Shown: positions 2,809 to 46,512 of the stretch, one piece after another
How the letters are laid out: each line of letters starts with the position of its first letter
Position numbering within the stretch: position 1 is the stretch's first letter
Origin: an uncultured Candidatus Poseidoniales archaeon
GTDB taxonomy: Archaea > Thermoplasmatota > Poseidoniia > Poseidoniales > Thalassarchaeaceae
Length of the DNA stretch: 64,000 bases
Direction: 5' to 3'
Assembly (NCBI GenBank): GCA_963934015.1
Contig: CAWVWT010000005.1
Coordinates: 4,692-68,691, forward strand
The notes under the pieces: generated by a model
What the model was told of the DNA's origin: nothing
What the model saw: only the letters and a program-made list of their open reading frames with translations
Database searches by the model: none
Translations under genes and position numbers: made by a program

Positions 2809-2811
2809 GAT

Positions 2812-3531: not shown

Positions 3532-3586
3532 GGGCTCAATACGCCGGGGAGAATGTTAAGTGACGTGCTTCAGCGTAGGCGATGCA

Positions 3587-5389: not shown

Positions 5390-5413
5390 ATTCAAACCCC
5401 TCGCGCACGCGCA

Positions 5414-5432
5414 CGGTGGCCTACGGCCACCG
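5414..5432 (+). other. GC-rich stem-loop (8-bp perfect stem, UAC loop) in the fadD-icmF spacer
   Basis: CGGTGGCC-TAC-GGCCACCG, 25 nt after the fadD-like stop, inside an unusually GC-rich 80-nt spacer. No T-run follows. Confidence 0.35.
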
Positions 5433-5469
5433 CCGATGGGCTCAAGCGCTGCCTTGGTCTCGCATTTAC

Positions 5470-16825: not shown

Positions 16826-17569
16826 ATGCTGAATATCACTGCTAAACAAGATACGATGAGAACCATCGTAGACATTCTCACGGTCCTTGTTGAGGATGCT
16901 AAATTCAAATTTGAAGATGGGCACCTCGAGGTTCGAGCAGTGGATGCAATGCATGTCGCAATGGTGCGAATGGAGATTGATGCTGCAGCCTTTGAAGCAT
17001 GGGAATGTGAGCCATGTACGATTGGATTTGAATTAAAGAAACTTCATGACCTCATCGGCTTGGCTGAAGCCGGAGATCTAATCGAAATGAATTATGATGA
17101 AAACGATGGAAGAGTCAACATCCAAGTTGGTGAAATCAATCGAACCATTCGACCATTAGATCGTGCTACAATGCTAGAGCCCCGGGTTCCTGATGTCGAA
17201 TTGCACAGTTCTGTCAAACTTTCCGCAATCAAGTTCAGTCGTGCACTGCGTGCAGCCAAGCAGGTTGGTGACTTGGCAACCATTTCCCTCAATGCTCAAT
17301 CATTTGGTGTGAATGTCAGCGGCGACACTGATACGGTCAATGTCTCATATGATGCTGGTGAATTGCAGGATTTGGTCTGTGACGGACCGGTGAAGAGTCA
17401 ATACAGCCTATCCCTACTCTACCCAATGGCCAAGCGAATGGAAGCAATTGTAGACAGCGTCACCTTGTTCTTCAATGAGAATCATCCACTCCGGTTGGAA
17501 TTTGAATTTGCAGACGGAGCAGGTCGTTGTGTCTACTTCCTCGCACCAAGAATTGAAGGCGATGCGTGA
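16826..17569 (+). CDS. pcn: DNA polymerase sliding clamp (PCNA)
   Basis: 247 aa with the typical archaeal PCNA length and pattern: FKFEDGHLEVRAVDAMHVAMVRMEI, second-domain repeat, C-terminal LAPRIE. Confidence 0.85.
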   Translation: MLNITAKQDTMRTIVDILTVLVEDAKFKFEDGHLEVRAVDAMHVAMVRMEIDAAAFEAWECEPCTIGFELKKLHDLIGLAEAGDLIEMNYDENDGRVNIQVGEINRTIRPLDRATMLEPRVPDVELHSSVKLSAIKFSRALRAAKQVGDLATISLNAQSFGVNVSGDTDTVNVSYDAGELQDLVCDGPVKSQYSLSLLYPMAKRMEAIVDSVTLFFNENHPLRLEFEFADGAGRCVYFLAPRIEGDA

Positions 17570-19481: not shown

Positions 19482-21383
19482 TTACTCCCCCCCTAGTGCA
19501 CCTGTTTGAATTGCCCATTGGCTGGAATATACACCGCTGTTGGTCACAAGAATATCATGCGTACCCCGTTCGACCACCGCCCCATCAACCATTGATAGAA
19601 TTTCGTCTGCATTTCGAATCGTCGATAAACGATGAGCTACTGCAATTGTGGTTCGTACGCCACCAGTTCCGAGGAGATTCGATTGAATTTGCCGCTCTGT
19701 TTCCGCATCTAAAGCACTTGAGGCTTCATCGAGAATCAACAAACTTGGCTTCTTCAGCATTGCTCGGGCCAACGAAATTCTCGCACGTTGGCCACCCGAT
19801 AGCATGACACCACGATCGCCAACAAGCGTGTCGACACCATCTTCCATATTGATTACAAATTCATCTGCGCCTGCCAAATGAAGTGCTGAATCGACTTCTT
19901 CTGAGCTTGCATGCCGTGAATAGACAACATTGTCACGAATACTTCCATAGAATAAGAATGGGTCTTGATTGACGAATCCCATCTGTTCTCGAACACTGTC
20001 CAGAGTAATGTCCTGGATGTTGTGGCCATTAATCAATACCTCTCCTGAATCAGGTTCATAGTAGCGTAGAATCAATTTCAATATTGTTGATTTACCTGCC
20101 CCAGTATGCCCCATAACACCAAGGAAGCCACCTTGCCCTACATTGAATGAAATTCCATTCAAAACCGGCGTATCTGTACCAGGATAAGTGAAGTGAACAT
20201 CTCGAAACTCAATGTTATCTATCGTACCATCCAATGCTGTTGCACCTTCTTTGTCAACAATACTGGGTTCCAAATCAACCATGTCGAACACGCGACGGGC
20301 AGCTGCCTCCCCACGTTGCAATTGGTTGACAAGCATTCCAAAAATGAACAACGGCATGGAAAGACGAGTCATGATGAGTAGGAACGTGACAAAGGCGCCC
20401 GTCGAAATATCTCCCTCCTTCATCAACCAACCTCCAACTGAGACCAAGAGTCCGTAAACGATTCCAGCAACCCCATACAAACCTGGAACGAAACGATTGC
20501 GGTCGCGGCTGGCTCCGATGGCTTCGTCACGGTATTCTTCACTTTCACTTGAAACCCGTGCGATTTCCCATTCTTGGGCGTTGTATGCCTGAACGACTGC
20601 AATTCCAGAAATGACATTCTCAAGAACTGCATTGATACCACCTGTTGATTCTCTTTGCTTGCGATATTTTCGTTGAACACGTGTCGAAAACAAATACACC
20701 ATTGGGAAGATGAGTAGAAGGGGACCGAAGAGAACTGCCGTCAACTTCCAAGACATCATCATGAGAATGAAGAATGCAGTGATGAATGTCGTGAATATCC
20801 GGATGATTGATGTGGATGAATCTGAGATTACATCCTCTAATTGATTCACATCGGAGGACAATACAGACATGAGGACCCCTGTTTGTCGAAGATCATAGTA
20901 AGATGCTTCCATCCGGATGAGGCTTTGAGTTGCATCCAATCTGAGATCGTGTTGCACCTTGTATCCGAGTGTTTGCCAGCAGTAATCAGATATGCCTTGG
21001 AATACAGCAAGACCAGCAAATCCAAGGAATATGAGAATTCCATAAGATATGGCTTGATCGTCGCTGATATGATGCAATAGATTCTCATCTAGGAAAGTAC
21101 GAAAATCACCTAAACGGCCACCCGATTTAGTCACGCCACTGTAATAGTCAACAGCGAAGCCGATGAAAATAAATGGGACCAAATCGAACACACGTGCAAA
21201 CATACAGGATAAAAATCCAAATGTTGCACGGTGGCGATAAGGGCTGACATACGGGAAAATTCTCCAAATGCTTCGCCCCAAGATTTGTAGGTCATCTTCG
21301 TCACCTTCTTTGGCAGAATTACCAATGGAAGCACCATGTCTACCGTGGGACATTGACGCGGGCTCAGGTCGGTGGTTTTTCAA
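19482..21383 (-). CDS. ABC exporter, fused permease-ATPase (MsbA/ABCB-like)
   Basis: Six-TM N-terminal half. Walker A GHTGAGKST, signature LSGGQRARISLARA, Walker B LILDEASSALD. Confidence 0.9.
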   Translation of the reverse strand: MKNHRPEPASMSHGRHGASIGNSAKEGDEDDLQILGRSIWRIFPYVSPYRHRATFGFLSCMFARVFDLVPFIFIGFAVDYYSGVTKSGGRLGDFRTFLDENLLHHISDDQAISYGILIFLGFAGLAVFQGISDYCWQTLGYKVQHDLRLDATQSLIRMEASYYDLRQTGVLMSVLSSDVNQLEDVISDSSTSIIRIFTTFITAFFILMMMSWKLTAVLFGPLLLIFPMVYLFSTRVQRKYRKQRESTGGINAVLENVISGIAVVQAYNAQEWEIARVSSESEEYRDEAIGASRDRNRFVPGLYGVAGIVYGLLVSVGGWLMKEGDISTGAFVTFLLIMTRLSMPLFIFGMLVNQLQRGEAAARRVFDMVDLEPSIVDKEGATALDGTIDNIEFRDVHFTYPGTDTPVLNGISFNVGQGGFLGVMGHTGAGKSTILKLILRYYEPDSGEVLINGHNIQDITLDSVREQMGFVNQDPFLFYGSIRDNVVYSRHASSEEVDSALHLAGADEFVINMEDGVDTLVGDRGVMLSGGQRARISLARAMLKKPSLLILDEASSALDAETERQIQSNLLGTGGVRTTIAVAHRLSTIRNADEILSMVDGAVVERGTHDILVTNSGVYSSQWAIQTGALGGE

Positions 21384-21752: not shown

Positions 21753-22547
21753 CTAAACGGCTTCAATCAATCTTGAAAATCCAAAAATGAAGGGTCGACC
21801 GTCGAGTAATTCCTGCCAATGATGTACTTCAAGTCGAAAATCATGGCAATCATGCGAAAGTACAACCTTCTCACAATTCAGAACCGTAAATGATTGTGGA
21901 GCTACATGCATACCCAATCCACAGGCCTTCAGGACAGCCTCCTTGACCACCCACGTACGAATCGCTTCTTGCATCCCAACCTCTGAATCAACATCCCATA
22001 ATTGTTCTAGATATTGGAGTTCTTCACCAGATGTCATCATCGTCAGCAAGTTCCTAGCACGAGGTACATCAAGAGGTTCTGCATCCAATCCAATTAGTGA
22101 GCCGTTAAGGGATACAGCTGCGATTGAAATTCCGTTTGAATGACCCAATGTGATATCTGGTAATTGCGGACTTAGGTGGCCACCAGCACGAATTCTGACC
22201 TCAGCATCAACCCACATTAGATTGGGCTTACGATACTCATCTCGTACGATTCGCAGATCGGATGGATCAAACCCCATTTCACGGAGGAGGGTGGCCAATG
22301 CATAACGTGCTGATGCATGTTCATTTGCTCTCTTGGATGTTACAAAGGTTGAGGCTTCAAATGCATCGACCAAGGGCACGTTTGATAAATCAGGCAAAGG
22401 ATCAGATGGGTTGCATTCACCAACTGGCATCCATACTGCAATCACTTCATCCAAGCCGCAACCACCGGGGAGTGAAAGCGGGTATACCGAACCTCTCGGA
22501 CGCCATATTTTCATAATAATTCCCCAATTGGAAAAATGATTTTTCAA
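21753..22547 (-). CDS. 4'-phosphopantetheinyl transferase, Sfp/PfaE type
   Basis: Motifs IGLDAEPL (GxD) and WVVKEAVLKACG (WxxKEAxxK). Length about 260 aa. Starts 4 nt after the megasynthase stop. Confidence 0.8.
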   Translation of the reverse strand: MKNHFSNWGIIMKIWRPRGSVYPLSLPGGCGLDEVIAVWMPVGECNPSDPLPDLSNVPLVDAFEASTFVTSKRANEHASARYALATLLREMGFDPSDLRIVRDEYRKPNLMWVDAEVRIRAGGHLSPQLPDITLGHSNGISIAAVSLNGSLIGLDAEPLDVPRARNLLTMMTSGEELQYLEQLWDVDSEVGMQEAIRTWVVKEAVLKACGLGMHVAPQSFTVLNCEKVVLSHDCHDFRLEVHHWQELLDGRPFIFGFSRLIEAV

Positions 22548-22551: not shown

Positions 22552-25500
22552 TTATTTTCCCTTCCTTTTGAGGCTAAATCTCAATTTTTCAGGAACGGGT
22601 GCCATGCCTTTAAGGCGAAGTCCTTTGAGAGAAACTATCGGTTTCTGATTGCGATCAAAAATCATGGCGTCATGGATTGTAATTCCACCTGCTTCATGAT
22701 CACGACGATAGCTCCGGACCCTCAATTTTTCACGTACCGCCGGGACTCTGAGAATTTTACACTCTTCGATACCAATCGGAAGGCTCGATATTTCATCAAT
22801 TTCCATTGTAACTAAACCCGCATTTTGGAAACAGGCTTCAATCAGCATAGGTAGTGACTCAAGGAGGGCTGGCCCTTCATCAAATAATTGGGAATTAGGC
22901 AATTGACTACGGAGTAGTGCAATTCCATCCGCCCCTAAATCATCACCATCAGATACACCCTTAATCAGACCACCGTGGACTTGAAATCTAGGACCATGGA
23001 AGAATCGATCATAGATGAAATTGGGTTGAAATGAAGCTTCCCCCCTGCCTGGTGAATTCATGAAGGATACACTCGCATCCCGTACGGCCCCCTCCTTGAG
23101 CAAACGTACTATGCCTTCGTGATGTATTCGTGGTTCTCCAAATACTTCACCTTTGGAATTGACTAAATCACTCTCAACATGACACTTGATGTACAGAGAA
23201 TTGTGATCTTGATCACTATATTCCGCTTTCACTCGGACACGGACTTCATCTTTCACCAATTTGATTGGAAGGCCAAATTTGACTTCTGCGAATCCCTCTA
23301 AGTTACACATTGGGTAAAGCAGTAGAGCACTTTGAGCGAACATTTCCATTGCCATCACACCTGGGTGGTAGGGCGTTCCTTCGATAGAATGGTCGATGAG
23401 GAAAGGGAATCTCGCAGTTGAAAGTGTGCACTCGGTGAAGATTTCGGTATACAGGTCATGCTTGAGGATTCGATCTACGAAAGGAAACCTTTCTGATTCC
23501 GAAAGTGCACCGGCGGTATCGGCCGGAAACTTCTGAGGGGGGGCCCTTTTACTGCCTTGATCATCTAATATCCCCAATGCACCTGCGGCTACCACGCGTC
23601 TTTTTCCACCACCAAGCATTTCTTTCACGAAAATTTCAACACCCGTTTCGACGGGGATTGTTTCAATGCCAGCTTGCATGAATACGGATTCCAATGACCC
23701 CCGGGTTGCCATACCAATATCACGCCAACCAGACCAAGCGATGGCTACTGCACGTGGAGCATCTTCGTGATGAGCAATGCGACACATCTCTGCATCGAGG
23801 ATGTTATTGGCGGCGGCATAGTCAACTTGGCCGCTATTCCCAAATCGGCCGGCGACCGAAGTAAATGCACACAAGACCCGTAACTGGTCAAGTTCGTCTT
23901 CCAGGGAATCAACCAAAGCCCGCCAACCATCTATTTTGACCGAGATAACTTTTGTGAAGGTGTCCCATGATTTTTCGGCGACTAATTTCGAATCCTCAAG
24001 TCCGGCACCATGCACGATGCCGGTAATTGGACCGCATTCTTTTCTCACGGCAGCTATCACTTTGGCGACTGATTTTGAATTCGTTACGTCACACGCATCA
24101 TACAATGCGTGGTTTCCTGTTGCTTGTATGTTGAATATTGTTCTATGAATCTCTAAACTACGCATCTGCTTGTTCCATTCGATATCCCATTCAACCATGG
24201 TGACTTTACCCGATTCACTCTGTGCAATCATCTCATCTCGAAGTTTTAGTTTTCGCTCTTGTAAGGTTGCCTCATCATCTTGAAGCCAATCCTCAATGGT
24301 GGCATCAAGGCGAGTACGCCCAAGGAGAACAAAAGTAGCCCCTGCACTCTTACTCAACTCAGCAGCCCCGACTATACATCTGGCAGTGACCCCTGATCCC
24401 CCGCCAGAAACAACCCACACATCGTCGGCCTGAAGGGGTTTGACATCTTCACTGAGGTCCTCCTCATACAAGCGTAAAGCCCAACGTTTCCCATCACGAG
24501 ATATTCCCACTTCCGATGGAGAGGTTCGACCAAAGGCTTCAGCCCATATTTGGTGTGCTAATGCAGTTGGATCTGCAAGCAATTCGGGGTCAATGTCGAC
24601 TGCACGGCAGCGCAGATGTGGTTTCTCTTTCGCGTAGGATTTGACTATGCCGTGTGCCCCTGCGGCGAGTGCGTTGAAGCGGCTACTGGCATTCCCATGC
24701 CTCCCATCCATTGCACTGACAGACATCACAACCCCATCTTTGATTGAACTAAAGTGGGGGTCTAGAGATTTCAGTAACCCAAACAGACCATGCGTTGTAG
24801 ACGTAAGTTGCGCCTGTTGTGTCTGGCTTTCCCAACCAACTCCTGCGAGGCGGAGGGGTGATAGATGAAGTAATGCAACAACATTCCCAATCTTTGCAAG
24901 GTGAGCGCTGACTTCTGCAAGTTGTTTGTGGTTCCCTGGATTCACTCGGACAATATCAACTGGGCCATCCTTCTCGATTTTGATTTTGGAGACTATACTC
25001 GGGTCGAGCATGATGCGAACTGTGTCAATCCCAGCAGCCCCTAAGATATGGCACAGTGTGTCTGCTACACCCCATGGGTCGTCGGTTACGGCAACCACCT
25101 TGCCATCTATATCGAGAGGCGTTGCTGCTTCAGGTGGGACTTCCTCGACCTCAACTTGCCACCGCCTAACACCAATTGTGCCGGGTTCGATTGGAATAAT
25201 GTTTGATACAGGGTTCTGTTGGCCTTCAGGTAGTTCACTTTGGATAGGTTCTTCGACGACTTCTTCACTCCCTTCTTGCCCCAAATATGCAATCATGTGG
25301 TTGAGCGTTGGATGTTCGCTCAAGACAAACGATTCATCTACAGGCAATCCGTAGAAATCTCGGAGTTCAGCCATGATTTCGGCTTGTTTTACAGTGTCAA
25401 TTCCAAGTTCACCCTCAAGGTCCTGATCTAATTCGATAAAATCAGCAGGATAGCCTGTATGCTTGACCACAACTTCGACTACTTTCATTGCAACATCACC

Positions 25501-28500
25501 TGAAATCGGGGTACTAACTTGAATGGCCGGCGCTTCTACTATACCCGATTCAGCAATCACAATCGGTTCAAGGGAGGGAGGTTCAGTAGAGGGGCCTACA
25601 CCCAAATATGCAATCATGTGGTTGAGCGTTGGATGTTCGCTCAAGACAAACGATTCATCTACAGGCAATCCGTAGAAATCTCGGAGTTCAGCCATGATTT
25701 CGGCTTGTTTTACAGTGTCAATTCCAAGTTCACCCTCAAGGTCCTGATCTAATTCGATAAAATCAGCAGGATAGCCTGTATGCTTGACCACAACTTCGAC
25801 TACTTTCGTCCCCACAGTACTTGACGGGAGGGGGGAGTTCACTTCGATTACCTCCTTGGCAGTAGCAGTAGGTTGAGGTTTGGGTTTGAGTTTGGGAATC
25901 GGTTCGGGTCGTATCCCTACATCTTGTTTAGCAACCGCCCAAGGTGTGCCTTGAATACCACCAATAATCATCTCATTGGGATTGATGTAAGCTACAAGTT
26001 TACGATTCAAGATGCGTAAATCAGCATCACCACCTGCTGCCTTTGAGGTCCAATCAGCAATTTGAGTACGGTTCAACCTATCGAGGTGTTTCGCAATCCG
26101 CTTGACCATGGTAAATGCCATTTGTGAACCGAATCCGGCAGCATGACGAACAACATACTCAACGTCAACAGGTCCACCCATAGATAGACGAAGATCACCC
26201 AATTCTGGATCAGGCTCTTTGAAATTGGCAATCGGGGGAAATTCACCCTGACACAGACCCCGTATCGAGACGGCATCTTCGATTCCCGTACCCATTGGAT
26301 GGCCTGTGAATCCTTTCGTATTCGTGATGATAATCTCTGATGCACTGTCTCCGAATGTTCTGCGGAGAGCTTGAATTTCTGCAGCGGCAGAACCGCCCCG
26401 AGGGGGGGTTGCCGGTTCGTGTGACATGAAAGAGGTGCGTGAGGCGATTGAATGACGATCCAAATCCCAATCTCGTTCCATCTTTGAAATGAAGAAATCC
26501 AATGAATTCGATACGTGATCAACATCAAGCCGTGTCGGGTGATATGCGGAATTGGCTAGATGAGTACCGAGAAGTTCGACATATGGCGTCACCCCCCGTT
26601 CCAAACTGAGGTTATTACGCTCGATGACGAAGGCTGCCGCACCCATTCCAAGCAACATCCCACTTCTGCGTGCATCAAATGGAAGGCTGACATCCTCCAC
26701 TACGTTGCCCATAGCATGGGCGCCTGCAGCAGCAAATCCAGAACCAATCCAAGTCATCAATTCATCACTGGTTGCATCATCTGCACTCACGACAATGACA
26801 CGGTCACAACGACCTGTCGTGAGCCAATCCTCTGCAATTGCAATGGCCGAGGGTGTTGAGGCACAGGCATTGTTTATCGCAGCATTGGGACCTCTTGCAC
26901 CAATCAACTGTGCAAATTGTGAATGGCCCATCGTTAGAATTTGTAATAGGAAGCGACGATCAAAATGACCACTTTCATCCGCCCCATTATTCTGTGCATG
27001 GCGCATCGCTTGATCGATTCCAGGGAAACATGAGGCAAAGATGACCCCGGTTCGATCTCGTTCTGATTCAGGGAGGTGCCACTGCTGGATATGGCGTTTT
27101 CCTGCTTTATTGATTTGTTCGACTGCAATCAATGGCAGACCCGCATCCTTGAGTGCTTCAACGCCCGCAGCGATTGCTAAGGATGTTGATATGTCCATGG
27201 CTTCAACAACTTTAGGATCAACACCGTATTGTTCGGCCAAATCGAAGTGACCCTTCTGGCCAGCAAGTTGTGGAATTAAACTGAAATCGTTACAAGGTAC
27301 AAATTCTGCGGATCCATCTGCGTGTTTTATAATTCGAACCAAATTTCGATCAAGAAGCCGCTGCTTAACTTCATCTGAAAGTTGAGAAATAAAATTGTCC
27401 CCACGAATAATTCGATCAAATGTATCTGGCGCAAACACCTCTTCCATTCCAGGTAAACCCAAACTGATGCCACTGAATACATAGGGATTCTCGCGGCGGG
27501 AGGACAAGGGATCTATTACAGCAGTATTTCGACGGACATCTATACCTTGATTCAGGGTGGGTGAACTACGTGGCACCTCATCCAACCATTCGACCAAAGC
27601 GGGGAGGGTCTTCGCGTTTGTACTCCCCTTCACCCGATAATTGGATTGTATTTTTTGATATATCTCAGAAATCTTTGTTTCACTTAATCCAATGGTTTCG
27701 AAATTTGTTGACCCGTGAATCATTCGTAGCGGGAAACCACTCACATTTGACACGATCTTGGCAATCGCAATTTCTTTCGATCTTCGTTCAACTTCGTCCT
27801 GTTCTTCTTTATTGAATGACTGTACATTCGCTTGAGGGGGAATTATACTAGCCTCAACTGTGATTGGGCCTTGAATGAAGCCCGGTGTTGAAATCCGTAC
27901 ACCTGCTTTGAATGCCTCAGTGAGTATGTTGCTATCTGCATCAGGCATATTTGGAATTCTACCTGAGAGGGCGTGGACTGCAAGGGCTGCATGGAAAGAA
28001 GCAATACCCCCCACCTTGGGATGATTTGTATTTGTCACAATCTTTGGTCGTTCTTCGAATATTTGTTCTGCGAATAAAGCCAAGGCGCGTTTTGGTCCGA
28101 CTTCAACGAAAAGACGGGCGCCGGCAGCATACATTGTTTCCATTTGCTTTGTCCATTCAACAGTAGAGGCCATTTGTGGGGCAAGCTTGGATAGAATTGC
28201 TTCCTTGGGACTACTTCCAGCTGGTGCCACATTAGGGTACCAACCTCCATCGAAATTTGAAGTGGTTGGGATTTGCGGTAATTGGATTTCTAAACCCTCA
28301 AGAAAATTTCGCAATGGTTCATTGGCTGGAGCGACAATTCGCGAATGGAATGCGTGACTAGTCTGTAGTTGTATACAGGGGGTACCGGCTTGTTCAAATT
28401 TCTTCATTACGCGCTTCATCGGTTCTGTTTCACCTGCGATGACGGTCATTTTTGGGCTATTTTTGTTAGCAGCAATCACGTACCCATCTTCGGCCTGCAG

Positions 28501-30837
28501 TGCGGCTTCAATCTGTTCGTAAGGTGCTGATACGGAGGCCATGATACCGCAATCCGGCACCTCGACACCACCCATTTCGGTACCACGTGCTGCTACTGCA
28601 CGTAGCGCACTATCGAAATCAAGTATCCCGGCAACCATCAATGCTGCATATTCTCCCAAAGAATGACCTGCAACCATATCGGGTTCAAGTCCGTGTGCTT
28701 TCATCAGACGATACAGGCCGAGGTCAGCGGTCAGCATCGCCGGCTGAGTATACTCGGTTTGTTTGAGTTTGGATTCTGATTCTTTCCTCTCAGCCTCAGA
28801 AAGGTTTTCGCGAAGCACGAATGAAGACAACGTTTCACCATCGAGGACTTCGATCATTGTACTATCAGCTTCATCCCAAGTTTCTCCAATGCAACCATAA
28901 CGCTTAGACAAATCAAGTGTCATGCCAACATATTGACTACCTTGACCGGGATAGAGATGCGCGACCTTAGCGTGGTCAGGTAGTGACGCCGTGTCGGTAA
29001 TCATCACCATTTGTTTAGCCAAAAAGTCCCATTTTGAACGATCATCAATCGACTTATCTAGTAGATCAAATCGCTTTGAAAGTTGAGCCCAATCACTGGC
29101 GACAATCGCACACCGAATACCCTCTGCGGTATAACCTCGGCTTGCCAAAGGTAGAGCAGTTGAAAGTCGCTTTCCATGGGGGTCATTGTCGAAATTCGAG
29201 CCACTAAACAAGTCGTTACGGATTCTACTGAGTTTGGCAATGAGTGATTTACTATCTGGGGCATTCACGAGAAGAACCCCCCCCTCGATATCCTTCAATT
29301 CGTCATGGGATAATGTAGCCGTGGATGAAACCGTTGTCGGCACCATTGCACCGGGGTTCAGCCATGCTGCACGGCGGGCATCAAACTCATTTGCGACAAG
29401 TAAATGAAAATCTCGATCATAGGACTCAATGGCACAATGGAAATTTGTGCCACCAAATCCAAACGATGACACCCCCGCTCGACGAGGATGTCCGTTTGGT
29501 GTAATCCATGGTTTAGGTTCTGTCGGGACATAAAATGGATTCGTGCCCCAATCAATATTTTCATTAGGTGTAGAAAAACCTGCACTGGGTGGTATTGTGG
29601 CAGTATGAACTGCTCGAATAGCCTTGACCAATCCTGCGATTCCGGCTGCTGCTTTGAGGTGCCCAATTTGACTCTTGATTGAACCAACTGCAACCGATTG
29701 CCCTGCGGGCGTATTTTCAAATGCTGAAGATAAACTGGTCAATTCGGTTGCATCACCGACAACTGTCGATGTTCCGTGGGCTTCGATCAATTCGACTGTG
29801 GATGAATCGTAACCAGCCTGCATATAGGCACGGCTAACCGCTTGGATTTGACCGCGGGTACTCGGTGCAGTGATGCCTTTGCCACGACCATCGCTACTCG
29901 CCCCCACGCCACGAATGACCGCTTGAATCGCGTCTCCATCTCTGATTGCATCTGAGAGTCGTTTCAATGTGAGGGCCCCCGAACCTTCACCCATGACAAA
30001 TCCATTCGCCTTGATGTCAAAGGGTGTTGAATGAGTCGCTGAAAGAGCGCCAATTGCGCTGAACTTTGCGAAGGTTGCTGGATCCATTGTACGATCGCTT
30101 GCTCCGGCCACCATCAAATCGACTTGCCGTGTTTGTAGCAATCGGCAGGCATCGAGTACAGCAGCAAAGGTAGAGGCGCAGGCTGCATCGGTGGAATAAT
30201 TCGGCCCCTGTAAATCAAGAAGGTTAGCAACACGTCCTGAAACAACGTTGGCAAGTTCACCTGGCATCGTATCTTCTGTCACCAACGGAAGTCCATCGAG
30301 AATAGCTGCTTTGAACGCTGCTTTGCCTTCACTGGGCATCCCACCAGCTTCAACTGCGTGCCGAGCGAACTGATCTGCCCATATTCTATGATTGGATAAA
30401 TTACGATTCTCACCCCCTAGTGCATTTGCGAATATCACACCAGTACGAGCACGCGGTAATTCCTTGCCGCCTTCACCCATGTATCCTGCATCTTCCAATG
30501 CCGCTGCACTGACTGTAACTGCCCACTGCTGAGTTAGGTCGATTTGCGGGAGTGAACCAGGTGGGACTTTCCAACGTCTCCAATCGAATTCGTAATTCTC
30601 AATCCAACCGCCAATTTTCGAATAGGTCTTGTTGGCGTCGACATTCTTCGGCCCTCCTTCGACCCAAAAGTCAGAGGAAACCCACCGGTGGTCTGGGACT
30701 TCCTTTATCGATACTTTCGCCGACAAAATGTTTGACCAAAACGCATCTACATCGAGTGCATCCGGCAACAGAGTTGCAACACCGATGACAGCAACCGGTT
30801 CAAACGGATCTTGCGGATTTTCATCAAGGATTGTCAA
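22552..30837 (-). CDS. PUFA-synthase / type I PKS-FAS-like megasynthase, KS-AT-KS-ACP-ACP-KR-DH
   Basis: KS1 nt 29428..30804 (DAACAST, EAHGTST, SQIGHLKAAAG). AT 28063..28965 (YPGQGSQ, GHSLGEY, HAFHS). Degenerate carrier-like segment 27574..27786. KS2 26098..27489 (NNACASTPS, MSHEPATPP, GFTGHPMGTG). ACP-like 25600..25806 and 25279..25485 (LGIDTVKQAEI). KR 23698..24423 (SGGGSGV, YAAAN). DH 22603..23490 (HSIEGTPYHP). No TE domain seen. Confidence 0.9.
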   Translation of the reverse strand: MTILDENPQDPFEPVAVIGVATLLPDALDVDAFWSNILSAKVSIKEVPDHRWVSSDFWVEGGPKNVDANKTYSKIGGWIENYEFDWRRWKVPPGSLPQIDLTQQWAVTVSAAALEDAGYMGEGGKELPRARTGVIFANALGGENRNLSNHRIWADQFARHAVEAGGMPSEGKAAFKAAILDGLPLVTEDTMPGELANVVSGRVANLLDLQGPNYSTDAACASTFAAVLDACRLLQTRQVDLMVAGASDRTMDPATFAKFSAIGALSATHSTPFDIKANGFVMGEGSGALTLKRLSDAIRDGDAIQAVIRGVGASSDGRGKGITAPSTRGQIQAVSRAYMQAGYDSSTVELIEAHGTSTVVGDATELTSLSSAFENTPAGQSVAVGSIKSQIGHLKAAAGIAGLVKAIRAVHTATIPPSAGFSTPNENIDWGTNPFYVPTEPKPWITPNGHPRRAGVSSFGFGGTNFHCAIESYDRDFHLLVANEFDARRAAWLNPGAMVPTTVSSTATLSHDELKDIEGGVLLVNAPDSKSLIAKLSRIRNDLFSGSNFDNDPHGKRLSTALPLASRGYTAEGIRCAIVASDWAQLSKRFDLLDKSIDDRSKWDFLAKQMVMITDTASLPDHAKVAHLYPGQGSQYVGMTLDLSKRYGCIGETWDEADSTMIEVLDGETLSSFVLRENLSEAERKESESKLKQTEYTQPAMLTADLGLYRLMKAHGLEPDMVAGHSLGEYAALMVAGILDFDSALRAVAARGTEMGGVEVPDCGIMASVSAPYEQIEAALQAEDGYVIAANKNSPKMTVIAGETEPMKRVMKKFEQAGTPCIQLQTSHAFHSRIVAPANEPLRNFLEGLEIQLPQIPTTSNFDGGWYPNVAPAGSSPKEAILSKLAPQMASTVEWTKQMETMYAAGARLFVEVGPKRALALFAEQIFEERPKIVTNTNHPKVGGIASFHAALAVHALSGRIPNMPDADSNILTEAFKAGVRISTPGFIQGPITVEASIIPPQANVQSFNKEEQDEVERRSKEIAIAKIVSNVSGFPLRMIHGSTNFETIGLSETKISEIYQKIQSNYRVKGSTNAKTLPALVEWLDEVPRSSPTLNQGIDVRRNTAVIDPLSSRRENPYVFSGISLGLPGMEEVFAPDTFDRIIRGDNFISQLSDEVKQRLLDRNLVRIIKHADGSAEFVPCNDFSLIPQLAGQKGHFDLAEQYGVDPKVVEAMDISTSLAIAAGVEALKDAGLPLIAVEQINKAGKRHIQQWHLPESERDRTGVIFASCFPGIDQAMRHAQNNGADESGHFDRRFLLQILTMGHSQFAQLIGARGPNAAINNACASTPSAIAIAEDWLTTGRCDRVIVVSADDATSDELMTWIGSGFAAAGAHAMGNVVEDVSLPFDARRSGMLLGMGAAAFVIERNNLSLERGVTPYVELLGTHLANSAYHPTRLDVDHVSNSLDFFISKMERDWDLDRHSIASRTSFMSHEPATPPRGGSAAAEIQALRRTFGDSASEIIITNTKGFTGHPMGTGIEDAVSIRGLCQGEFPPIANFKEPDPELGDLRLSMGGPVDVEYVVRHAAGFGSQMAFTMVKRIAKHLDRLNRTQIADWTSKAAGGDADLRILNRKLVAYINPNEMIIGGIQGTPWAVAKQDVGIRPEPIPKLKPKPQPTATAKEVIEVNSPLPSSTVGTKVVEVVVKHTGYPADFIELDQDLEGELGIDTVKQAEIMAELRDFYGLPVDESFVLSEHPTLNHMIAYLGVGPSTEPPSLEPIVIAESGIVEAPAIQVSTPISGDVAMKVVEVVVKHTGYPADFIELDQDLEGELGIDTVKQAEIMAELRDFYGLPVDESFVLSEHPTLNHMIAYLGQEGSEEVVEEPIQSELPEGQQNPVSNIIPIEPGTIGVRRWQVEVEEVPPEAATPLDIDGKVVAVTDDPWGVADTLCHILGAAGIDTVRIMLDPSIVSKIKIEKDGPVDIVRVNPGNHKQLAEVSAHLAKIGNVVALLHLSPLRLAGVGWESQTQQAQLTSTTHGLFGLLKSLDPHFSSIKDGVVMSVSAMDGRHGNASSRFNALAAGAHGIVKSYAKEKPHLRCRAVDIDPELLADPTALAHQIWAEAFGRTSPSEVGISRDGKRWALRLYEEDLSEDVKPLQADDVWVVSGGGSGVTARCIVGAAELSKSAGATFVLLGRTRLDATIEDWLQDDEATLQERKLKLRDEMIAQSESGKVTMVEWDIEWNKQMRSLEIHRTIFNIQATGNHALYDACDVTNSKSVAKVIAAVRKECGPITGIVHGAGLEDSKLVAEKSWDTFTKVISVKIDGWRALVDSLEDELDQLRVLCAFTSVAGRFGNSGQVDYAAANNILDAEMCRIAHHEDAPRAVAIAWSGWRDIGMATRGSLESVFMQAGIETIPVETGVEIFVKEMLGGGKRRVVAAGALGILDDQGSKRAPPQKFPADTAGALSESERFPFVDRILKHDLYTEIFTECTLSTARFPFLIDHSIEGTPYHPGVMAMEMFAQSALLLYPMCNLEGFAEVKFGLPIKLVKDEVRVRVKAEYSDQDHNSLYIKCHVESDLVNSKGEVFGEPRIHHEGIVRLLKEGAVRDASVSFMNSPGRGEASFQPNFIYDRFFHGPRFQVHGGLIKGVSDGDDLGADGIALLRSQLPNSQLFDEGPALLESLPMLIEACFQNAGLVTMEIDEISSLPIGIEECKILRVPAVREKLRVRSYRRDHEAGGITIHDAMIFDRNQKPIVSLKGLRLKGMAPVPEKLRFSLKRKGK
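25280..25807. repeat. perfect 207-bp direct repeat (25280..25486 and 25601..25807) encoding the two carrier domains
   Basis: The two copies are identical base for base on comparison, at a 321-nt period (107 aa). They encode identical 69-aa segments KVVEVVVKHTGYPADF...NHMIAYLG. Confidence 0.95.
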
Positions 30838-30846: not shown

Positions 30847-31638
30847 TCAGTCACTGATACTATCCGGTACCATCGTGCTGGAATACCCAGCATCGACATG
30901 GATGATTTGCCCTGTAACACCTGAACCAAGCGGGCTAGATAGCCAAACCGCACAACCTGCAACATCGTCTTGATTGACGTTGCGGCGAAGAGGTGAATTA
31001 CGTTCGACATGGTCGAGAATGTCATCAAATCCTGGAATCCCACCTGCGGCCAAAGTTCGAATTGGACCTGATGAAATTGCATTGACACGATGGCCTTCTT
31101 CGCCGACACGCATAGCCAATTCACGGACCCATGCTTCAAGCGCAGCTTTGGCGATACTCATCACACCGTAATTTGGAACATGCCGAGTACTGGCTGCATA
31201 AGTGAGGGTAATAGTCGAAGAATTTGGCGCAAGATGTGGAAGGGCATGGCGCATGATGCGTTGCAAAGAATGTGCTGAGATTGTCATCGCAGTATTGAGG
31301 GCATCATCTTCGACAAATAGCATGTGCCGATCGAAACATTCCCTCGGGGCAAATCCAATCGCATGTATGACGATGTCAGCCTTGGCTCCTGGTGCCATCT
31401 GTTGCCATTCATGGAAGAATTCAGCAGTGGTTTCCTCGGCAGCTACATCGATTGGATAGAACGCCTCAATGGCCTCAAGTTTATCCTTTAGCTGGAAAAC
31501 TCGACTCATGAATCTCTTCTGATATCCGAGAATTAGTTTGCACCCAGCCTCAGCCAACCGATTGCAAATTGCCCACGCGATGGAATCCTCGGATGCAACC
31601 CCAAACACCAGTGCAGTCTTTCCTTCAAGTTGCAACAT
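30847..31638 (-). CDS. fabI: enoyl-ACP reductase, FabI type (SDR)
   Basis: GKTALVFGVASEDSIAWAICNRLAEAG, a Y-x6-K region (PNYGVMSIAKAALE) and NAISSGPIRTLAA. Stop lies 9 nt before the megasynthase start. Confidence 0.85.
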   Translation of the reverse strand: MLQLEGKTALVFGVASEDSIAWAICNRLAEAGCKLILGYQKRFMSRVFQLKDKLEAIEAFYPIDVAAEETTAEFFHEWQQMAPGAKADIVIHAIGFAPRECFDRHMLFVEDDALNTAMTISAHSLQRIMRHALPHLAPNSSTITLTYAASTRHVPNYGVMSIAKAALEAWVRELAMRVGEEGHRVNAISSGPIRTLAAGGIPGFDDILDHVERNSPLRRNVNQDDVAGCAVWLSSPLGSGVTGQIIHVDAGYSSTMVPDSISD

Positions 31639-31712: not shown

Positions 31713-32612
31713 CTACGGGTCAATTTCACCATACAGTGCGCCGGGCCAGATAGATTGTACGTGATGCAGTAATTCTTCAGTCTGTTCGACATCTATTGTT
31801 CCAAGAAGATTGGAAACTAGTGATTGAGTTCTCTTTGGCACTGTTTTAGGGCCAAGGACTGCACCAGGCCGCGATGGATCATCCAGATAATCGGTTTCCA
31901 TCGTCCATGTAGATGAACAGTGGCGATATGTTTCCATGATTGTAGAAAGGCTATCTTTGCCCATGCTGACAGAAGAGGATAATCCATGTGTGAAGGATTC
32001 ACCAACATTTGCAGCAGCGTAATGGTGTATGGCATGTTTTCGCATCAAACCAGAACGATCACAAATTGTTGCCAATTCAGCATTTGTTTGAGCTCCGTTA
32101 TCCTCAACGTGTAATTGAATGGGGAAGCCTGCCTGAGCGGCCATGTGCATTACCACCTCTAATTGTTTATTTGCGGCACCCCATATCTCATCCGATACGG
32201 GATAATGAGGACGGCCGACTTCCCCAAGAGCAACCGCTTGACCTTCTGCGCAATACTCTAATGCGAGAGCGACTGAATCAATATGGAGTTCAGATGATTT
32301 CTCCAACCCTAGTGTATGAATTTGTTTCTCCCAAACCACTGGGTGTGGCCCCAAGATTACACGGACGTCAATTCCAACCTCTCTTCGAACGGTATTAGCC
32401 ATCTCTAGGGTTCCAATGTATGCTTTTTTGACAGCATTAATTGACTCGGGTAAATTAGAAGGAAAATCAGGTTTGTGGACCAAGCAAAGATGCGTCCCCC
32501 CTGCATTTGCAAAATCTTTGGCAGCAGATACACCTCGCCCACTTGGGTCTAAATGAAGGTGTGTATCCCAAATAGGGCCGGTCCAGCGACCCTCTGTGAT
32601 TGTCATTTTCAT
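31713..32612 (-). CDS. TatD-family / amidohydrolase-fold metal-dependent hydrolase
   Basis: WDTHLHLDP metal motif, later HVEDNG and HHYAA. The ATG at 32612 shares one nt with the upstream stop (TGATG). The track start is 32651. Confidence 0.6.
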   Translation of the reverse strand: MKMTITEGRWTGPIWDTHLHLDPSGRGVSAAKDFANAGGTHLCLVHKPDFPSNLPESINAVKKAYIGTLEMANTVRREVGIDVRVILGPHPVVWEKQIHTLGLEKSSELHIDSVALALEYCAEGQAVALGEVGRPHYPVSDEIWGAANKQLEVVMHMAAQAGFPIQLHVEDNGAQTNAELATICDRSGLMRKHAIHHYAAANVGESFTHGLSSSVSMGKDSLSTIMETYRHCSSTWTMETDYLDDPSRPGAVLGPKTVPKRTQSLVSNLLGTIDVEQTEELLHHVQSIWPGALYGEIDP

Positions 32613-33127
32613 CAACCCAATAGATTCTCGTCGGACAATCGTTGTTTCCATCGGCGAGCGGCCATTGCAACCAATTTCACATGACGCGCTTCGGTTGCAA
32701 TTCCTCGGCCATTTCGGAATAGAAGCATCTTGATTTCGTGCCGATTATCATTGATTTGAAGACAATCCAGTTCAGTGTCTAAAACCGCTTCAGGGTATAA
32801 ATCAGGGACACCTTCGAGCGATACTGTGGCCTCAAAATCAAATGATGCGACCACAGGTCCAACTTCAAAGGTCATACCAGATTCTGCTTCACCAAGGCGC
32901 AATAGTACCTCTTTGGCTGCTAGGTGAGCCAAATCTTGCTTTCGGCAACCGTGTACGATGATTTTTCCATCAGGATCAATCAATAATGTTGCTCGAGGCG
33001 CCACCAAAGATAGGGTCACATACCTTCCACTGCGCTTCCCACCAATCTCATCAACAACTCTCTGAGGGTCGAGAACAAAAGCAGGAGTGAATCTAAACAA
33101 TTGATTCTCCACACGTGCTTCTGTCAT
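32612..33127 (-). CDS. divergent TBP-fold (two-repeat) protein
   Basis: Two halves resemble the TBP repeat cores: ATLLIDPDGKIIVHGCRKQDLAHLAAKEVL and KMLLFRNGRGIATEARHVKLVAMAARRW (compare LLIFSSGKxVxTGAKSxxDxxxAV). The canonical FPG and stirrup residues are not evident. ATGA overlap with the upstream gene. Confidence 0.4.
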   Translation of the reverse strand: MTEARVENQLFRFTPAFVLDPQRVVDEIGGKRSGRYVTLSLVAPRATLLIDPDGKIIVHGCRKQDLAHLAAKEVLLRLGEAESGMTFEVGPVVASFDFEATVSLEGVPDLYPEAVLDTELDCLQINDNRHEIKMLLFRNGRGIATEARHVKLVAMAARRWKQRLSDENLLG

Positions 33128-40614: not shown

Positions 40615-40713
40615 GGACCGTCCTGTCGCTTTACCCCCATAATGGGATGGGTTAAGGGAATCGAGGTGACAGCCTCAAGAGGGAGTGGTGCCGCCCAAGG
40701 ATTGGAGATAGAA

Positions 40714-46450: not shown

Positions 46451-46512
46451 GGATGTTGCCATTCGCGTCCGGTTCAAAGGCGTGCCGCATCCGCCCTTAG
46501 GAGCGGGTTGTT

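What the first reader, a model, noticed from the sequence alone, without database searches (positions are those of the whole stretch)
25279..25806. Both carrier domains carry Thr at the phosphopantetheinylation site and are a base-perfect 207-bp duplication
The canonical carrier motif (D/E)LG(I/L)DS reads ELGIDTVK in both copies. The Thr codons (ACT) are at 25714..25716 and 25393..25395, and I verified them on the DNA. A third, degenerate carrier-like segment (27574..27786, FETIGLSETKISEI) also lacks a G-x-x-S arrangement. So no carrier in this synthase has the canonical Ser, even though a dedicated Sfp-type PPTase is encoded 4 nt downstream. Three readings are possible: Thr is phosphopantetheinylated (highly unusual), the domains work without the prosthetic arm, or the synthase is inactive. 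The 100 percent DNA identity of the two 207-bp copies points to very recent duplication or ongoing gene conversion. It is also a place where short-read assembly could have collapsed or expanded the copy number.
Basis: seen in the sequence. Interest (0 to 1): 0.7.

Follow-up and report, generated by a model that had tools for sequence, protein, structure and literature searches.

The report
Threonine-type carrier domains in archaeal lipid synthase
A giant fatty-acid/polyketide-type synthase in a Marine Group II archaeon has threonine instead of the supposedly universal serine at the site where its carrier domains receive their swinging arm, and this is a strictly conserved feature of a large, apparently undescribed class of carrier domains found in many bacterial phyla and two archaeal lineages.

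Summary
Window 22552-30837 (-) encodes a 2,761-aa synthase with the domain order KS-AT-pseudoACP-KS2-ACP-ACP-KR-DH. A FabI-type enoyl reductase lies upstream and an Sfp-type PPTase downstream. The host is a Marine Group II (Poseidoniales) archaeon.

Both ACPs read ELGIDTVKQAE, with Thr (ACT) on the canonical Ser position. Their 207-nt cores are identical (25280-25486 and 25601-25807).

The Thr is not an error or a sign of decay:
- All 283 ACP copies in 120 Poseidoniales homologues (53-99% identity) have it.
- All four Thr codons occur at the site.
- GIDTVKQAE arrays occur in more than 120 species-representative genomes, including Acidobacteria, Chloroflexi, Elusimicrobia, Actinobacteria, Myxococcota and Heimdallarchaeum.
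- Close relatives carry Ser at the same site, and none carries Ala or Pro.

The architecture matches the uncharacterised "Type R secondary lipid synthase" of Shulse & Allen (2011).

Best reading (inferred, about 0.65): Thr itself is O-phosphopantetheinylated by the linked PPTase. The "inactive synthase" reading is rejected. The identical cores with divergent linkers point to domain-limited gene conversion, although assembly smoothing cannot be excluded. No paper I could search mentions a Thr attachment site.

The parts
22552..30837 (-). 2,761-aa iterative type I FAS/PKS-like synthase ('Type R' PfaA homologue) with domain order KS-AT-pseudoACP-KS2-ACP-ACP-KR-DH
   Evidence: ORF and translation. 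Pfam domains. Best NCBIfam match is PfaA TIGR02813, 816 bits, below the 1010 cut-off. 120 listed Poseidoniales homologues at 53-99% identity.
29416..30801 (-). KS1 (aa 13-474), with Cys220, His354 and His393
   Evidence: PF00109, PF02801 and PF16197. Motifs DAACAST, EAHGTST and IGHLK located.
28054..28956 (-). Acyltransferase (aa 628-928), with GHSLG Ser726 and a HAFH malonyl-type motif
   Evidence: PF00698, 125 bits. FabD TIGR00128, 2e-57. Motifs read from the translation.
27571..27783 (-). Pseudo-ACP (aa about 1019-1089). It has an ACP fold but no conserved hydroxyl at the site (IGLSETK, site residue Glu).
   Evidence: 3.7 bits to the ACP HMM. Conserved block with a variable site in homologues. 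AF2 core pLDDT 85-89. All top Foldseek PDB hits are ACP/PCP.
25903..27450 (-). KS2 (aa about 1130-1645). It retains Cys1325, His1473 and His1513, so it is a ketosynthase-type domain rather than a Gln-type chain-length factor.
   Evidence: Second ketoacyl-synt stretch and a weak ACP_syn_III match. Cys in 325 of 325 non-gap aligned KS sequences, with 42 gapped; the alignment may also include KS1 hits.
25606..25815 (-). ACP1 (aa 1675-1744). Attachment-site residue is Thr1708, codon ACT at 25714-25716.
25273..25497 (-). ACP2 (aa 1781-1855). Attachment-site residue is Thr1815, codon ACT at 25393-25395.
25280..25486 (.). Exact 207-nt repeat, copy covering the ACP2 core (69 codons)
   Evidence: Offset-321 comparison finds a longest exact run of 207 nt with near-random flanks. 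The repeat finder family D1.
25601..25807 (.). Exact 207-nt repeat, copy covering the ACP1 core
23719..24555 (-). Ketoreductase (aa about 2095-2373), with Rossmann motif SGGGSGVT at aa 2144 and YAAAN Tyr2340
   Evidence: PF08659, 93 bits. Motifs located.
22603..23448 (-). PKS-type dehydratase (aa about 2464-2745), with HxxxGxxxxP His2483 and EACFQ at aa 2667
   Evidence: PF21089, 25.3 bits, just under the cut-off of 27. PS-DH is listed for homologues. Motifs located.
21753..22547 (-). Sfp-type (group II) 4'-phosphopantetheinyl transferase. The start is either TTG at 22547 or ATG at 22514.
   Evidence: PF01648, 36.3 bits against a cut-off of 25. GLDAE and WxxKEAxxK motifs are conserved. A family profile hits human AASDHPPT (2cg5) and Sfp (1qr0, 4mrt) at about 1e-22. 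The same position is occupied in L188 and L189.
30847..31638 (-). FabI-type enoyl reductase, 9 nt upstream of the synthase; the probable trans-acting ER
   Evidence: adh_short_C2, 4e-67. FabI equivalog models about 4e-67, below their cut-offs. Conserved neighbour in L188 and L189.
19482..21383 (-). MsbA-like ABC exporter downstream of the PPTase. It may export the lipid product, but it is not a conserved neighbour in L188 or L189.
   Evidence: ABC_membrane plus ABC_tran. MsbA TIGR02203, 404 bits, below the cut-off. Absent from this position.

Best explanation
The two repeats are genuine tandem acyl carrier domains of an iterative, PfaA-like ('Type R') fatty-acid/polyketide synthase. This synthase is a vertically inherited core gene of Marine Group II archaea.

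Thr at the attachment position is not a defect. It is the selected state of a large class of carrier domains with the motif (D/E)LG(I/V)DTVKQ(A/V)E.

The most likely mechanism is as follows. The Sfp-type PPTase encoded immediately downstream transfers 4'-phosphopantetheine from CoA onto the Thr hydroxyl, producing O-phosphopantetheinyl-threonine. The AT then loads malonyl units on the resulting thiol. KS1 and KS2 extend the chain. KR, DH and the neighbouring FabI reduce it, giving a fatty-acyl product.

What is shown and what is inferred:
- Shown: the domain identities, the conservation of Thr, the Ser/Thr-only pattern at the site, and the linkage to a PPTase.
- Inferred: that Thr is actually modified, that FabI acts in trans, and that the product is a fatty acid.

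The perfect 207-nt identity of the two cores, set between unrelated linkers, is best explained by gene conversion confined to the folded domain.
For: Conservation within Poseidoniales:
- All 283 ACP copies in 120 Poseidoniales homologues (53-99% identity, 1-4 copies each) read LGIDTVKQAE.
- Short fragments from other metagenomes show the same motif.
- All four Thr codons are used at the site (ACG 141, ACC 109, ACT 13, ACA 12), including in archaeal loci. Thr has therefore been kept through many synonymous changes.

Position of the site:
- Thr aligns on the modified Ser of solved ACPs.

Breadth of the class:
Most hits are tandem arrays of 1-6 copies in many phyla.
- An exhaustive phmmer search found 419 clusters (50% identity) at E<=1e-30. 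In the top 150 there are 398 Thr domains and 224 Ser domains, in homogeneous arrays.

Only hydroxyl residues occur at the site:
- The Ser version of the same 9-mer occurs in 67 loci.
- The Ala/Pro version occurs in 6 loci, none of which is an ACP. This is despite Thr-to-Ala being a single transition.

Natural Ser/Thr exchange among close relatives:
- L139 (Ser) is 74% identical to a Thr-type ACP but only 49% identical to any other Ser-type ACP.
- P0315 has the KS2 architecture with all-Ser ACPs.
- Heimdallarchaeum L014 has a Ser-Thr-Ser array in one protein with a fused PPTase.

Internal control:
- The pseudo-ACP in the same protein has an ACP fold but a freely varying site residue.

The PPTase:
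- It is adjacent in MGII.
- It is adjacent or fused in 25 of 39 Thr-type loci that have enough downstream sequence.
- Its catalytic R, P, SxxH, GxDxE, E and WxxKExxxK residues are conserved.
- Its family profile matches Sfp and AASDHPPT.

The synthase and its setting:
- Catalytic motifs of KS1, AT, KS2, KR and DH are intact.
- The synteny TBP-TatD-FabI-synthase-PPTase is conserved at 54-57% protein identity.
- Gene GC (0.480) equals window GC (0.478).
- The architecture plus downstream PPTase matches Type R of Shulse & Allen (PMC3098273).
Against: - No experiment anywhere, as far as I could find, shows a phosphopantetheinyl-threonine. Ten full-text searches found nothing. Recent papers still describe the Ser as required (PMC13291983).
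- From my own memory, not verified here: E. coli ACP S36T is not modified by AcpS (Keating, Carey & Cronan 1995).
- No PPTase alignment column cleanly separates Thr-linked from Ser-linked enzymes. Only two weak, phylogenetically confounded columns were found. No specificity determinant was identified.
- The AF2 model of the ACP pair is only moderate (pLDDT 64, single sequence).
- I could not scan a whole MGII genome for other carrier proteins or PPTases.
- Arrays are almost never mixed. Ser and Thr therefore do not drift freely into one another, which is left unexplained if they are fully equivalent.
Confidence: 0.65

Rival explanations
1. The Thr-type domains are never phosphopantetheinylated. 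They act as arm-less scaffolds or docking domains, and the catalytic domains work on CoA thioesters or on a separate, canonical ACP encoded elsewhere in the genome.
For: - Thr has never been shown to accept the arm. No report was found in any of the literature searches.
- From my own knowledge: archaeal fatty-acid synthesis has been proposed to be ACP-independent (Lombard et al. 2012), and AcpS does not modify ACP S36T.
- An arm-less ACP-fold domain does exist in this very protein.
Against: - The true ACPs keep the full PPTase-recognition motif, and the site holds only Ser or Thr. It is never Ala or Pro, although Thr-to-Ala is one transition.
- The arm-less pseudo-ACP shows that an unconstrained site varies freely.
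- Copy number varies from 1 to 6, as in PUFA-synthase ACP arrays.
- The PPTase is adjacent or fused and has an intact active site.
- Close relatives with Ser share the same sequence context.
Confidence: 0.12
2. Thr is modified, but not in the canonical way. Either a different group is attached (for example phosphate, a sugar or another CoA-derived moiety), or the arm is attached at another residue while Thr serves only for PPTase or partner recognition.
For: Arrays are homogeneous for Thr or for Ser, and MGII has 283 of 283 Thr. Thr therefore seems to be specifically preferred rather than merely tolerated.
Against: - No other Ser, Thr or Cys column is conserved in the domain apart from structural Thr residues in HTGYP and PTL.
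- The only modifying enzyme consistently linked to these arrays is a PPTase.
- Thr sits exactly on the Ser of solved holo-ACPs.
Confidence: 0.08
3. The synthase is an inactive relic, or the Thr codons are sequencing or assembly errors.
For: None beyond the departure from the textbook motif.
Against: - Homologues run from 53 to 99% identity, are full length (2,628-3,054 aa) and have intact catalytic motifs.
- Synteny is conserved across Poseidoniales families.
- The motif is invariant in hundreds of independent assemblies, and all four Thr codons are used.
Confidence: 0.02
4. This rival concerns the 207-nt identity only. The perfect identity, and possibly the copy number of two, is an artefact of short-read assembly: near-identical repeat copies were merged to one consensus, or the array was collapsed or expanded.
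For: - 52 homologous proteins are short fragments (49-125 aa). Several are labelled partial by NCBI. I take them as signs that assemblies break inside ACP arrays.
- Only about 1% of intra-protein ACP pairs in MGII homologues are 100% identical at protein level; the mean is 81%. This window is therefore atypical.
Against: - An independent ENA contig (P0053, 99% identical, 2,761 aa) has the same two-copy structure.
- P0059 and P0093 also have ACP pairs that are 99-100% identical.
- Each copy is anchored by its own unique linker on both sides.
- The nearest sister group (81-84% identity, P0054-P0058) has one ACP, which fits a lineage-specific recent gain.
Confidence: 0.2

Closest known systems
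'Type R' secondary lipid synthase cluster (Shulse & Allen 2011, PLoS One 6:e20146; PMC3098273)
   Same: It is a single pfaA homologue with KS-MAT-CLF-ACPn-KR followed by a PPTase gene. It was reported in Koribacter, Solibacter, Elusimicrobium minutum and Roseiflexus. These phyla are the ones that carry GIDTVKQAE arrays. E. minutum locus L071 shows AT-KS2-ACPs-KR-DH plus a PPTase, with Thr-type ACPs.
   Different: - The paper reports 3-6 ACPs. This window has 2, and MGII homologues have 1-4.
- The paper calls the second KS a CLF, whereas here it keeps the Cys-His-His triad.
- The paper lists no archaea and never mentions the Ser-to-Thr change.
- The product is unknown.
- In MGII a FabI gene is a fixed upstream neighbour.
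PfaA subunit of bacterial PUFA synthases (TIGR02813)
   Same: It is the best NCBIfam match (816 bits). It shares the KS-MAT...tandem ACP...KR-DH order, a variable number of tandem ACPs and a dedicated Sfp-type PPTase (PfaE).
   Different: - The score is below the 1010-bit cut-off.
- A pseudo-ACP and KS2 are inserted between the AT and the ACPs.
- PfaA ACPs read LGIDSIKRVEIL, with Ser.
- No PfaB, PfaC or PfaD was found among the ORFs I scanned with Pfam. A FabI homologue is present instead.
RerA/RerB iterative PKS of Rhodococcus erythropolis PR4 and enediyne-type PKSE (PMC11563203)
   Same: The order is KS-AT-ACP-ACP-KR-DH with a PPTase encoded next to it. This is the architecture of the Ser-type GIDSVKQAE loci in Streptomyces and Firmicutes. 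For RerA, the ACPs were shown experimentally to carry polyenoyl chains.
   Different: It has Ser-type ACPs, no KS2 and no enoyl reductase, and it makes conjugated polyenes. The window enzyme has KS2, Thr-type ACPs and an adjacent FabI, which suggests reduced chains.
Canonical carrier proteins (PF00550; PROSITE phosphopantetheine site)
   Same: The Pfam score is well above the cut-off. The predicted helix order fits an ACP. The D-x motif lies at the start of helix II, and the acidic helix II is retained.
   Different: The defining Ser is Thr in every copy.

Membership tests
Carrier protein domain (PP-binding, PF00550) | Sequence match to the family profile above the curated cut-off | tested here: met
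   67.5 bits against a cut-off of 20.8, in two stretches. 94 and 96 bits to the session ACP HMM.
Carrier protein domain (PP-binding, PF00550) | Four-helix bundle with the attachment residue at the N-terminus of helix II | tested here: inconclusive
   The single-sequence AF2 model gives the expected helix order, with Thr just before helix II, but mean pLDDT is only 64. Sequence alignments to solved ACPs are in register.
Carrier protein domain (PP-binding, PF00550) | Invariant Ser as the phosphopantetheine acceptor | tested here: not met
   Thr in both copies and in 283 of 283 MGII copies. No other conserved Ser.
Carrier protein domain (PP-binding, PF00550) | Covalent 4'-phosphopantetheine on the domain | not testable with these tools
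   This needs mass spectrometry or a labelled-CoA assay.
Type R secondary lipid synthase (Shulse & Allen 2011) | Single polypeptide with KS-MAT-(CLF/KS2)-tandem ACP-KR | tested here: met
   Pfam domain order compared with the paper's description. The ACP count is 2, against 3-6 in the paper.
Type R secondary lipid synthase (Shulse & Allen 2011) | PPTase gene directly downstream | tested here: met
   21753-22547 (-), 4-37 nt after the stop codon. The same arrangement is seen in L188 and L189.
Type R secondary lipid synthase (Shulse & Allen 2011) | KS domain clusters with the Type R clade in a KS phylogeny | not tested
   No tree with the paper's reference KS set was built. Indirect support only: the E. 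minutum locus L071 shares the KS2 architecture and Thr-type ACPs.
PfaA of PUFA synthase (TIGR02813) | Score at or above the NCBIfam cut-off | tested here: not met
   815.9 bits, below the cut-off of 1010.1.
PfaA of PUFA synthase (TIGR02813) | Partner genes pfaB, pfaC (KS-CLF-DH/I) and pfaD (ER) in the cluster | tested here: not met
   None was found among the ORFs scanned with Pfam. FabI is the only reductase adjacent to the synthase.
Sfp-type (group II) PPTase | ACPS-superfamily match above the cut-off, with similarity to Sfp/AASDHPPT over both halves | tested here: met
   PF01648, 36.3 bits against 25. Profile A3 hits 2cg5, 1qr0 and 4mrt at about 1e-22 across profile positions 29-233. The single sequence alone hits no solved PPTase.
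Sfp-type (group II) PPTase | Catalytic and Mg-binding motifs GxDxE and WxxKExxxK | tested here: met
   GLDAE at aa 142 and KEAVLK at aa 191, numbered from the ATG-start protein. These are invariant or nearly so across 33-49 family members.
Sfp-type (group II) PPTase | Transfers phosphopantetheine to this carrier (here, to Thr) | not testable with these tools
   This needs a biochemical assay.

The most novel reading that the evidence does not exclude
O-(4'-phosphopantetheinyl)-threonine is a natural and widespread post-translational modification. It would define a Thr class of carrier proteins, served by its own clade of Sfp-type PPTases, in at least ten bacterial phyla and in Poseidoniales and Heimdall archaea. 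In Marine Group II archaea the resulting holo-enzyme, together with FabI, would be the cell's own fatty-acid synthase. That would give these abundant ocean archaea a bacterial-style acyl-lipid capability.
Probability: 0.55. Interest if true: 0.85.

Novelty: new variant of a known kind. Interest (0 to 1): 0.72.

Why it matters
Attachment of phosphopantetheine to Ser is treated as a defining rule of carrier proteins. It is built into the PROSITE pattern (my own knowledge), and authors use the Ser to call ACP domains functional (PMC13291983). A conserved Thr class has several consequences:
- It would add a new residue to this modification.
- It would explain why these clusters carry their own PPTase. 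This is a hypothesis: the Thr could insulate the carriers from host AcpS or AcpH, or give a more stable linkage.
- It would stop such domains from being scored as inactive.

The class is also easy to test, because cultured bacteria carry it (Elusimicrobium minutum, Roseiflexus, Koribacter, Solibacter).

Separately, the host gene is a core, syntenic gene of Marine Group II archaea. Their membrane lipids are unresolved, and they have been proposed to make fatty-acid-containing or chimeric lipids (PMC6962369). Whether this enzyme can be activated bears directly on that question.

Tried and rejected
- Literature. Ten full-text searches covered motif strings (GIDTVK and similar), 'threonine' with phosphopantetheinylation, Poseidoniales or MGII with PKS or FAS, and Ser-replaced-by-Thr phrases. 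None found any mention of a Thr attachment site. Targeted reads of PMC3098273, PMC13291983, PMC11563203 and bioRxiv 2025.01.28.635281 also found none. I could not verify my recollection about E. coli ACP S36T.
- PPTase specificity. I looked for a residue that separates Thr-linked from Ser-linked PPTases. No column separates them at 80% conservation. At 60%, two columns just after KEAxxKAxGxG differ: L/M versus F, and D/N versus G. The Ser set is 10 sequences from the 12 Ser-type PPTase loci, several of them Streptomyces and Firmicutes, so I do not use this as evidence.
- Solved structures. A single-sequence PDB search with the window PPTase returned only noise. A family profile was needed. No solved structure of a Thr-type ACP exists among the PDB sequence hits.
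- Concerted evolution. I tested whether tandem-ACP homogenisation is general in MGII. It is not: intra-protein identity averages 81% against 77% between proteins. The perfect pair here is a local event.
- Recent horizontal transfer. I considered it for the gene and rejected it on composition and conserved synteny.
- Dedicated PPTase as a Thr-specific feature. I rejected this as a unique explanation, because Ser-type relatives also have linked PPTases.

Full report
**What is in the window**

The finding lies inside one very long ORF, 22552-30837 on the minus strand, of 2,761 aa. Pfam gives two ketosynthase regions, an acyltransferase, two PP-binding domains, a ketoreductase and a PKS-type dehydratase. 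The best NCBIfam model is PfaA of PUFA synthases, at 816 bits, below its cut-off of 1010.

Nine nucleotides upstream lies a FabI-type enoyl reductase (30847-31638). Four nucleotides downstream lies a 4'-phosphopantetheinyl transferase (21753-22547), followed by an MsbA-like ABC exporter.

The surrounding genes are archaeal: PCNA, fibrillarin, Nop56/58, a TBP-domain protein and Orc1/Cdc6. All close homologues come from Candidatus Poseidoniales, that is Marine Group II.

The catalytic motifs are intact:
- KS1: Cys220, His354, His393.
- AT: Ser726 (GHSLG, HAFH).
- KS2: Cys1325, His1473, His1513.
- KR: Tyr2340 (YAAAN).
- DH: His2483 (HxxxGxxxxP).

**Checking the observation**

Both carrier domains read ELGIDTVKQAEIM. 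The Thr codons are ACT at 25714-25716 and 25393-25395.

phmmer against all PDB chains aligns this Thr exactly on the Ser of the D-S motif in PigH, S. aureus ACP, AcpM and others. No other Ser is conserved in the domain.

The exact repeat is 207 nt (25280-25486 = 25601-25807), with a period of 321 nt. The sequence just outside it is essentially unrelated.

The third carrier-like segment (aa about 1019-1089) is barely detectable by sequence, at 3.7 bits. An AF2 model built on 22 homologues (core pLDDT 85-89) matches only ACP and PCP structures. Its site-equivalent residue is Glu here and varies freely in homologues. It is a pseudo-ACP.

**The Thr is conserved, not accidental**

- 120 listed full-length Poseidoniales homologues (53-99% identity, 2,628-3,054 aa) contain 283 ACP copies, and every one reads LGIDTVKQAE. 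Copy number is 1 (35 proteins), 2 (22), 3 (48) or 4 (15).
- The gene order TBP-TatD-FabI-synthase-PPTase is kept in two homologues at 54% and 57% identity, one of them annotated Thalassarchaeaceae.
- The gene's GC content equals that of the window.
- All four Thr codons occur at the site.

This is a functional, vertically inherited gene with purifying selection on Thr.

**The Thr type is a large cross-phylum class**

A back-translated DNA pattern for GIDTVKQAE, run against one genome per GTDB species, reached the 120-locus output limit. Hits came from Elusimicrobia, Acidobacteria, Chloroflexi, Acidimicrobiia, Solirubrobacterales, Myxococcota, Gemmatimonadota, Rhodothermales, Heimdallarchaeum and Poseidoniales. 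Most were tandem arrays of 1-6 copies.

An exhaustive phmmer search of 1.84 billion cluster representatives found 4,234 proteins at E<=1e-3 and 419 at E<=1e-30. In the best 150, I counted 398 Thr-site and 224 Ser-site ACP domains. Almost all arrays were pure, for example TTTT in 44 proteins, TTT in 32 and SSSS in 17.

Most Ser arrays have the classical PfaA motif GIDSIKRVEIL and lack KS2. Thr arrays mostly follow a KS2 domain, in 28 of 37 proteins with enough upstream sequence.

This architecture, with its downstream PPTase, is what Shulse & Allen (2011) called the Type R secondary lipid synthase. They found it in Koribacter, Solibacter, Elusimicrobium and Roseiflexus, with an unknown product. 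Their paper does not mention Ser or Thr.

**Evidence that the hydroxyl is needed and that Thr substitutes for Ser**

1. The same 9-mer with Ser occurs in 67 loci. Many of these are clearly homologous ACPs, with the context TGYP...LDLEADLGIDSVKQAE.
2. The same 9-mer with Ala or Pro occurs in only six loci. None is an ACP: most lie in unrelated proteins and one appears out of frame. This is notable because Thr-to-Ala is a single transition.
3. Across 187 loci, an ACP HMM finds 331 Thr and 128 Ser. The only other residues are in pseudo-ACPs or truncated hits.
4. Ser and Thr have been exchanged among close relatives.
   - A Solirubrobacteraceae ACP with Ser (L139) is 74% identical to a Thr-type ACP and only 49% identical to any other Ser type.
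   - P0315 has the KS2 architecture with all-Ser ACPs.
   - The complete genome of Heimdallarchaeum aukensis (L014) encodes a Ser-Thr-Ser array in one KS-AT-KS2-ACP3-KR-DH-PPTase fusion.
5. The pseudo-ACP is an internal control for an unconstrained site.

**The PPTase**

The window enzyme alone is too divergent to hit any solved PPTase. It belongs to a family found next to, or fused to, these synthases: 44 free-standing copies, plus fusions, in the fetched loci. A PPTase is present in 25 of 39 Thr-type loci that have enough downstream sequence.

The family conserves R, P, SxxH, GxDxE, E, WxxKExxxK and G. Its profile matches human AASDHPPT and Sfp at about 1e-22 over both halves.

Ser-type relatives have the same kind of PPTase. 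I found no convincing Thr-specific determinant.

**Best explanation and its limits**

I conclude that these are working ACPs whose acceptor residue is Thr. The arm is most probably attached to Thr by the linked PPTase. The loaded enzyme, with FabI acting in trans, would build a reduced acyl chain.

The domain assignments, the conservation and the Ser/Thr-only rule are shown by the analyses above. The modification itself, the role of FabI and the nature of the product are inferred.

Two points count against the conclusion:
- No experimental precedent was found in any search. Current papers still treat Ser as required.
- The near-absence of mixed arrays suggests Ser and Thr are not freely interchangeable, which I cannot explain. 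Possible reasons are co-adaptation with the PPTase, insulation from host AcpS or AcpH, or linkage stability. These are hypotheses only.

**The 207-nt identity**

In MGII generally, ACP copies within a protein are only slightly more alike (81%) than copies from different proteins (77%). About 1% of intra-protein pairs are identical.

Here the nearest sister group (81-84% identity) has one ACP. An independent contig of the same lineage (P0053, 99% identical) has the same two copies. A few other lineages also show 99-100% identical pairs.

Identity is restricted to the 69 codons of the fold, between unrelated linkers. This fits gene conversion better than a fresh duplication of the 321-nt unit.

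Assembly smoothing or a copy-number error cannot be excluded. The 52 homologous proteins returned by the ACP query are all short fragments, some labelled partial, which I read as assemblies breaking inside ACP arrays.

**Comparison with known systems**

The enzyme works like a PfaA-type iterative synthase, and its architecture places it in Type R. It fails two textbook membership features: the carrier-protein Ser, and the PfaA score cut-off together with the PfaB/C/D partners.

The closest experimentally studied relative of the Ser-type sister architecture is Rhodococcus RerA/RerB, which makes polyenes on Ser-type tandem ACPs.

**Relevance**

MGII archaea are uncultured and their lipids are unresolved. 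A putative fatty-acid pathway and PlsC homologues have been noted for them (PMC6962369). The window also carries a biotin carboxylase, an acyl-CoA synthetase and a hotdog thioesterase.

**Verdict**

The 'inactive synthase' reading is rejected. Thr as the attachment site is the leading, testable hypothesis. This is a new variant of a known kind, and it is of high interest if the chemistry is confirmed.

Noticed in passing
window 27571-27783 (-), aa about 1019-1089: A conserved pseudo-ACP sits between the AT and KS2. It is predicted to have an ACP fold but has no conserved acceptor residue (IGLSETK here; IGLDSGK, IGMDAAK, LGIRPEQ and others in homologues). Equivalent degenerate domains appear upstream of the ACPs in Ser-type Streptomyces and Firmicutes loci (GLGLST..., ELGVSLL...). 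Its role (docking, dimerisation or a relic) is unknown.
   Followed up: partly
window 25903-27450 (-), aa about 1130-1645: Shulse & Allen labelled the second ketosynthase-like domain of Type R synthases a 'CLF'. Here it keeps the full Cys-His-His triad. Cys is present in 325 of 325 non-gap aligned KS sequences, although that alignment may also include KS1 hits. The enzyme may therefore have two active ketosynthases.
   Followed up: partly
L014 (CP084166.1, Candidatus Heimdallarchaeum aukensis), ORF 3-7535: An Asgard archaeon encodes the same KS-AT-KS2-ACP3-KR-DH architecture with a C-terminally fused PPTase. Its ACP array is mixed Ser-Thr-Ser (DLGIDSIKAAE, DLGIDTVKQAE, DLGVDSIKIAE). PPTase fusions also occur in L040, L061, L089 and L090.
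   Followed up: partly
P0001-P0052: All 52 proteins retrieved with the single ACP as query are fragments of 49-125 aa. Several are labelled partial by NCBI. This suggests that metagenome assemblies routinely break inside these tandem ACP arrays, so copy numbers in MAGs should be treated with care.
   Followed up: no
window 33953-39838 (-): A 1,961-aa ORF with no Pfam match lies a few genes upstream of the synthase. Large ORFs with no Pfam hit occupy the same relative position in L188 (1,208 aa) and L189 (1,954 aa). Function unknown.
   Followed up: no
window 31713-33127 (-): A TatD-family hydrolase and a small TBP-domain protein lie upstream of FabI and the synthase. The same pair is present in both divergent homologous loci examined (L188, L189), which may point to a conserved operon or regulatory link.
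   Followed up: partly
window 45113-46477 (-), 3560-5389 (+), 5356-8802 (+), 40642-41175 (+): Other acyl-metabolism genes in the window: a biotin carboxylase (a possible acetyl-CoA carboxylase subunit for malonyl-CoA supply), an AMP-forming acyl-CoA synthetase, a fused B12/MeaB/methylmalonyl-CoA mutase (IcmF-like), and a 4HBT hotdog thioesterase that could release acyl chains.
   Followed up: no
window 21753-22547 (-), PPTase aa about 202 and 205 (numbered from the ATG start): Two alignment columns just after the KEAxxKAxGxG motif differ between PPTases linked to Thr-type arrays (L/M and D/N) and those linked to Ser-type arrays (F and G). The window enzyme also has Thr where about 95% of relatives have the first Ser of the SxxH motif. 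The first pattern is confounded by phylogeny, and neither was pursued.
   Followed up: partly
window 49137-50402 (+) and 16826-17569 (+): Orc1/Cdc6 and PCNA genes lie within about 20 kb on either side of the synthase locus. PCNA is also close to the synthase in L189. The locus may sit in a replication-associated, conserved core region of the chromosome.
   Followed up: no
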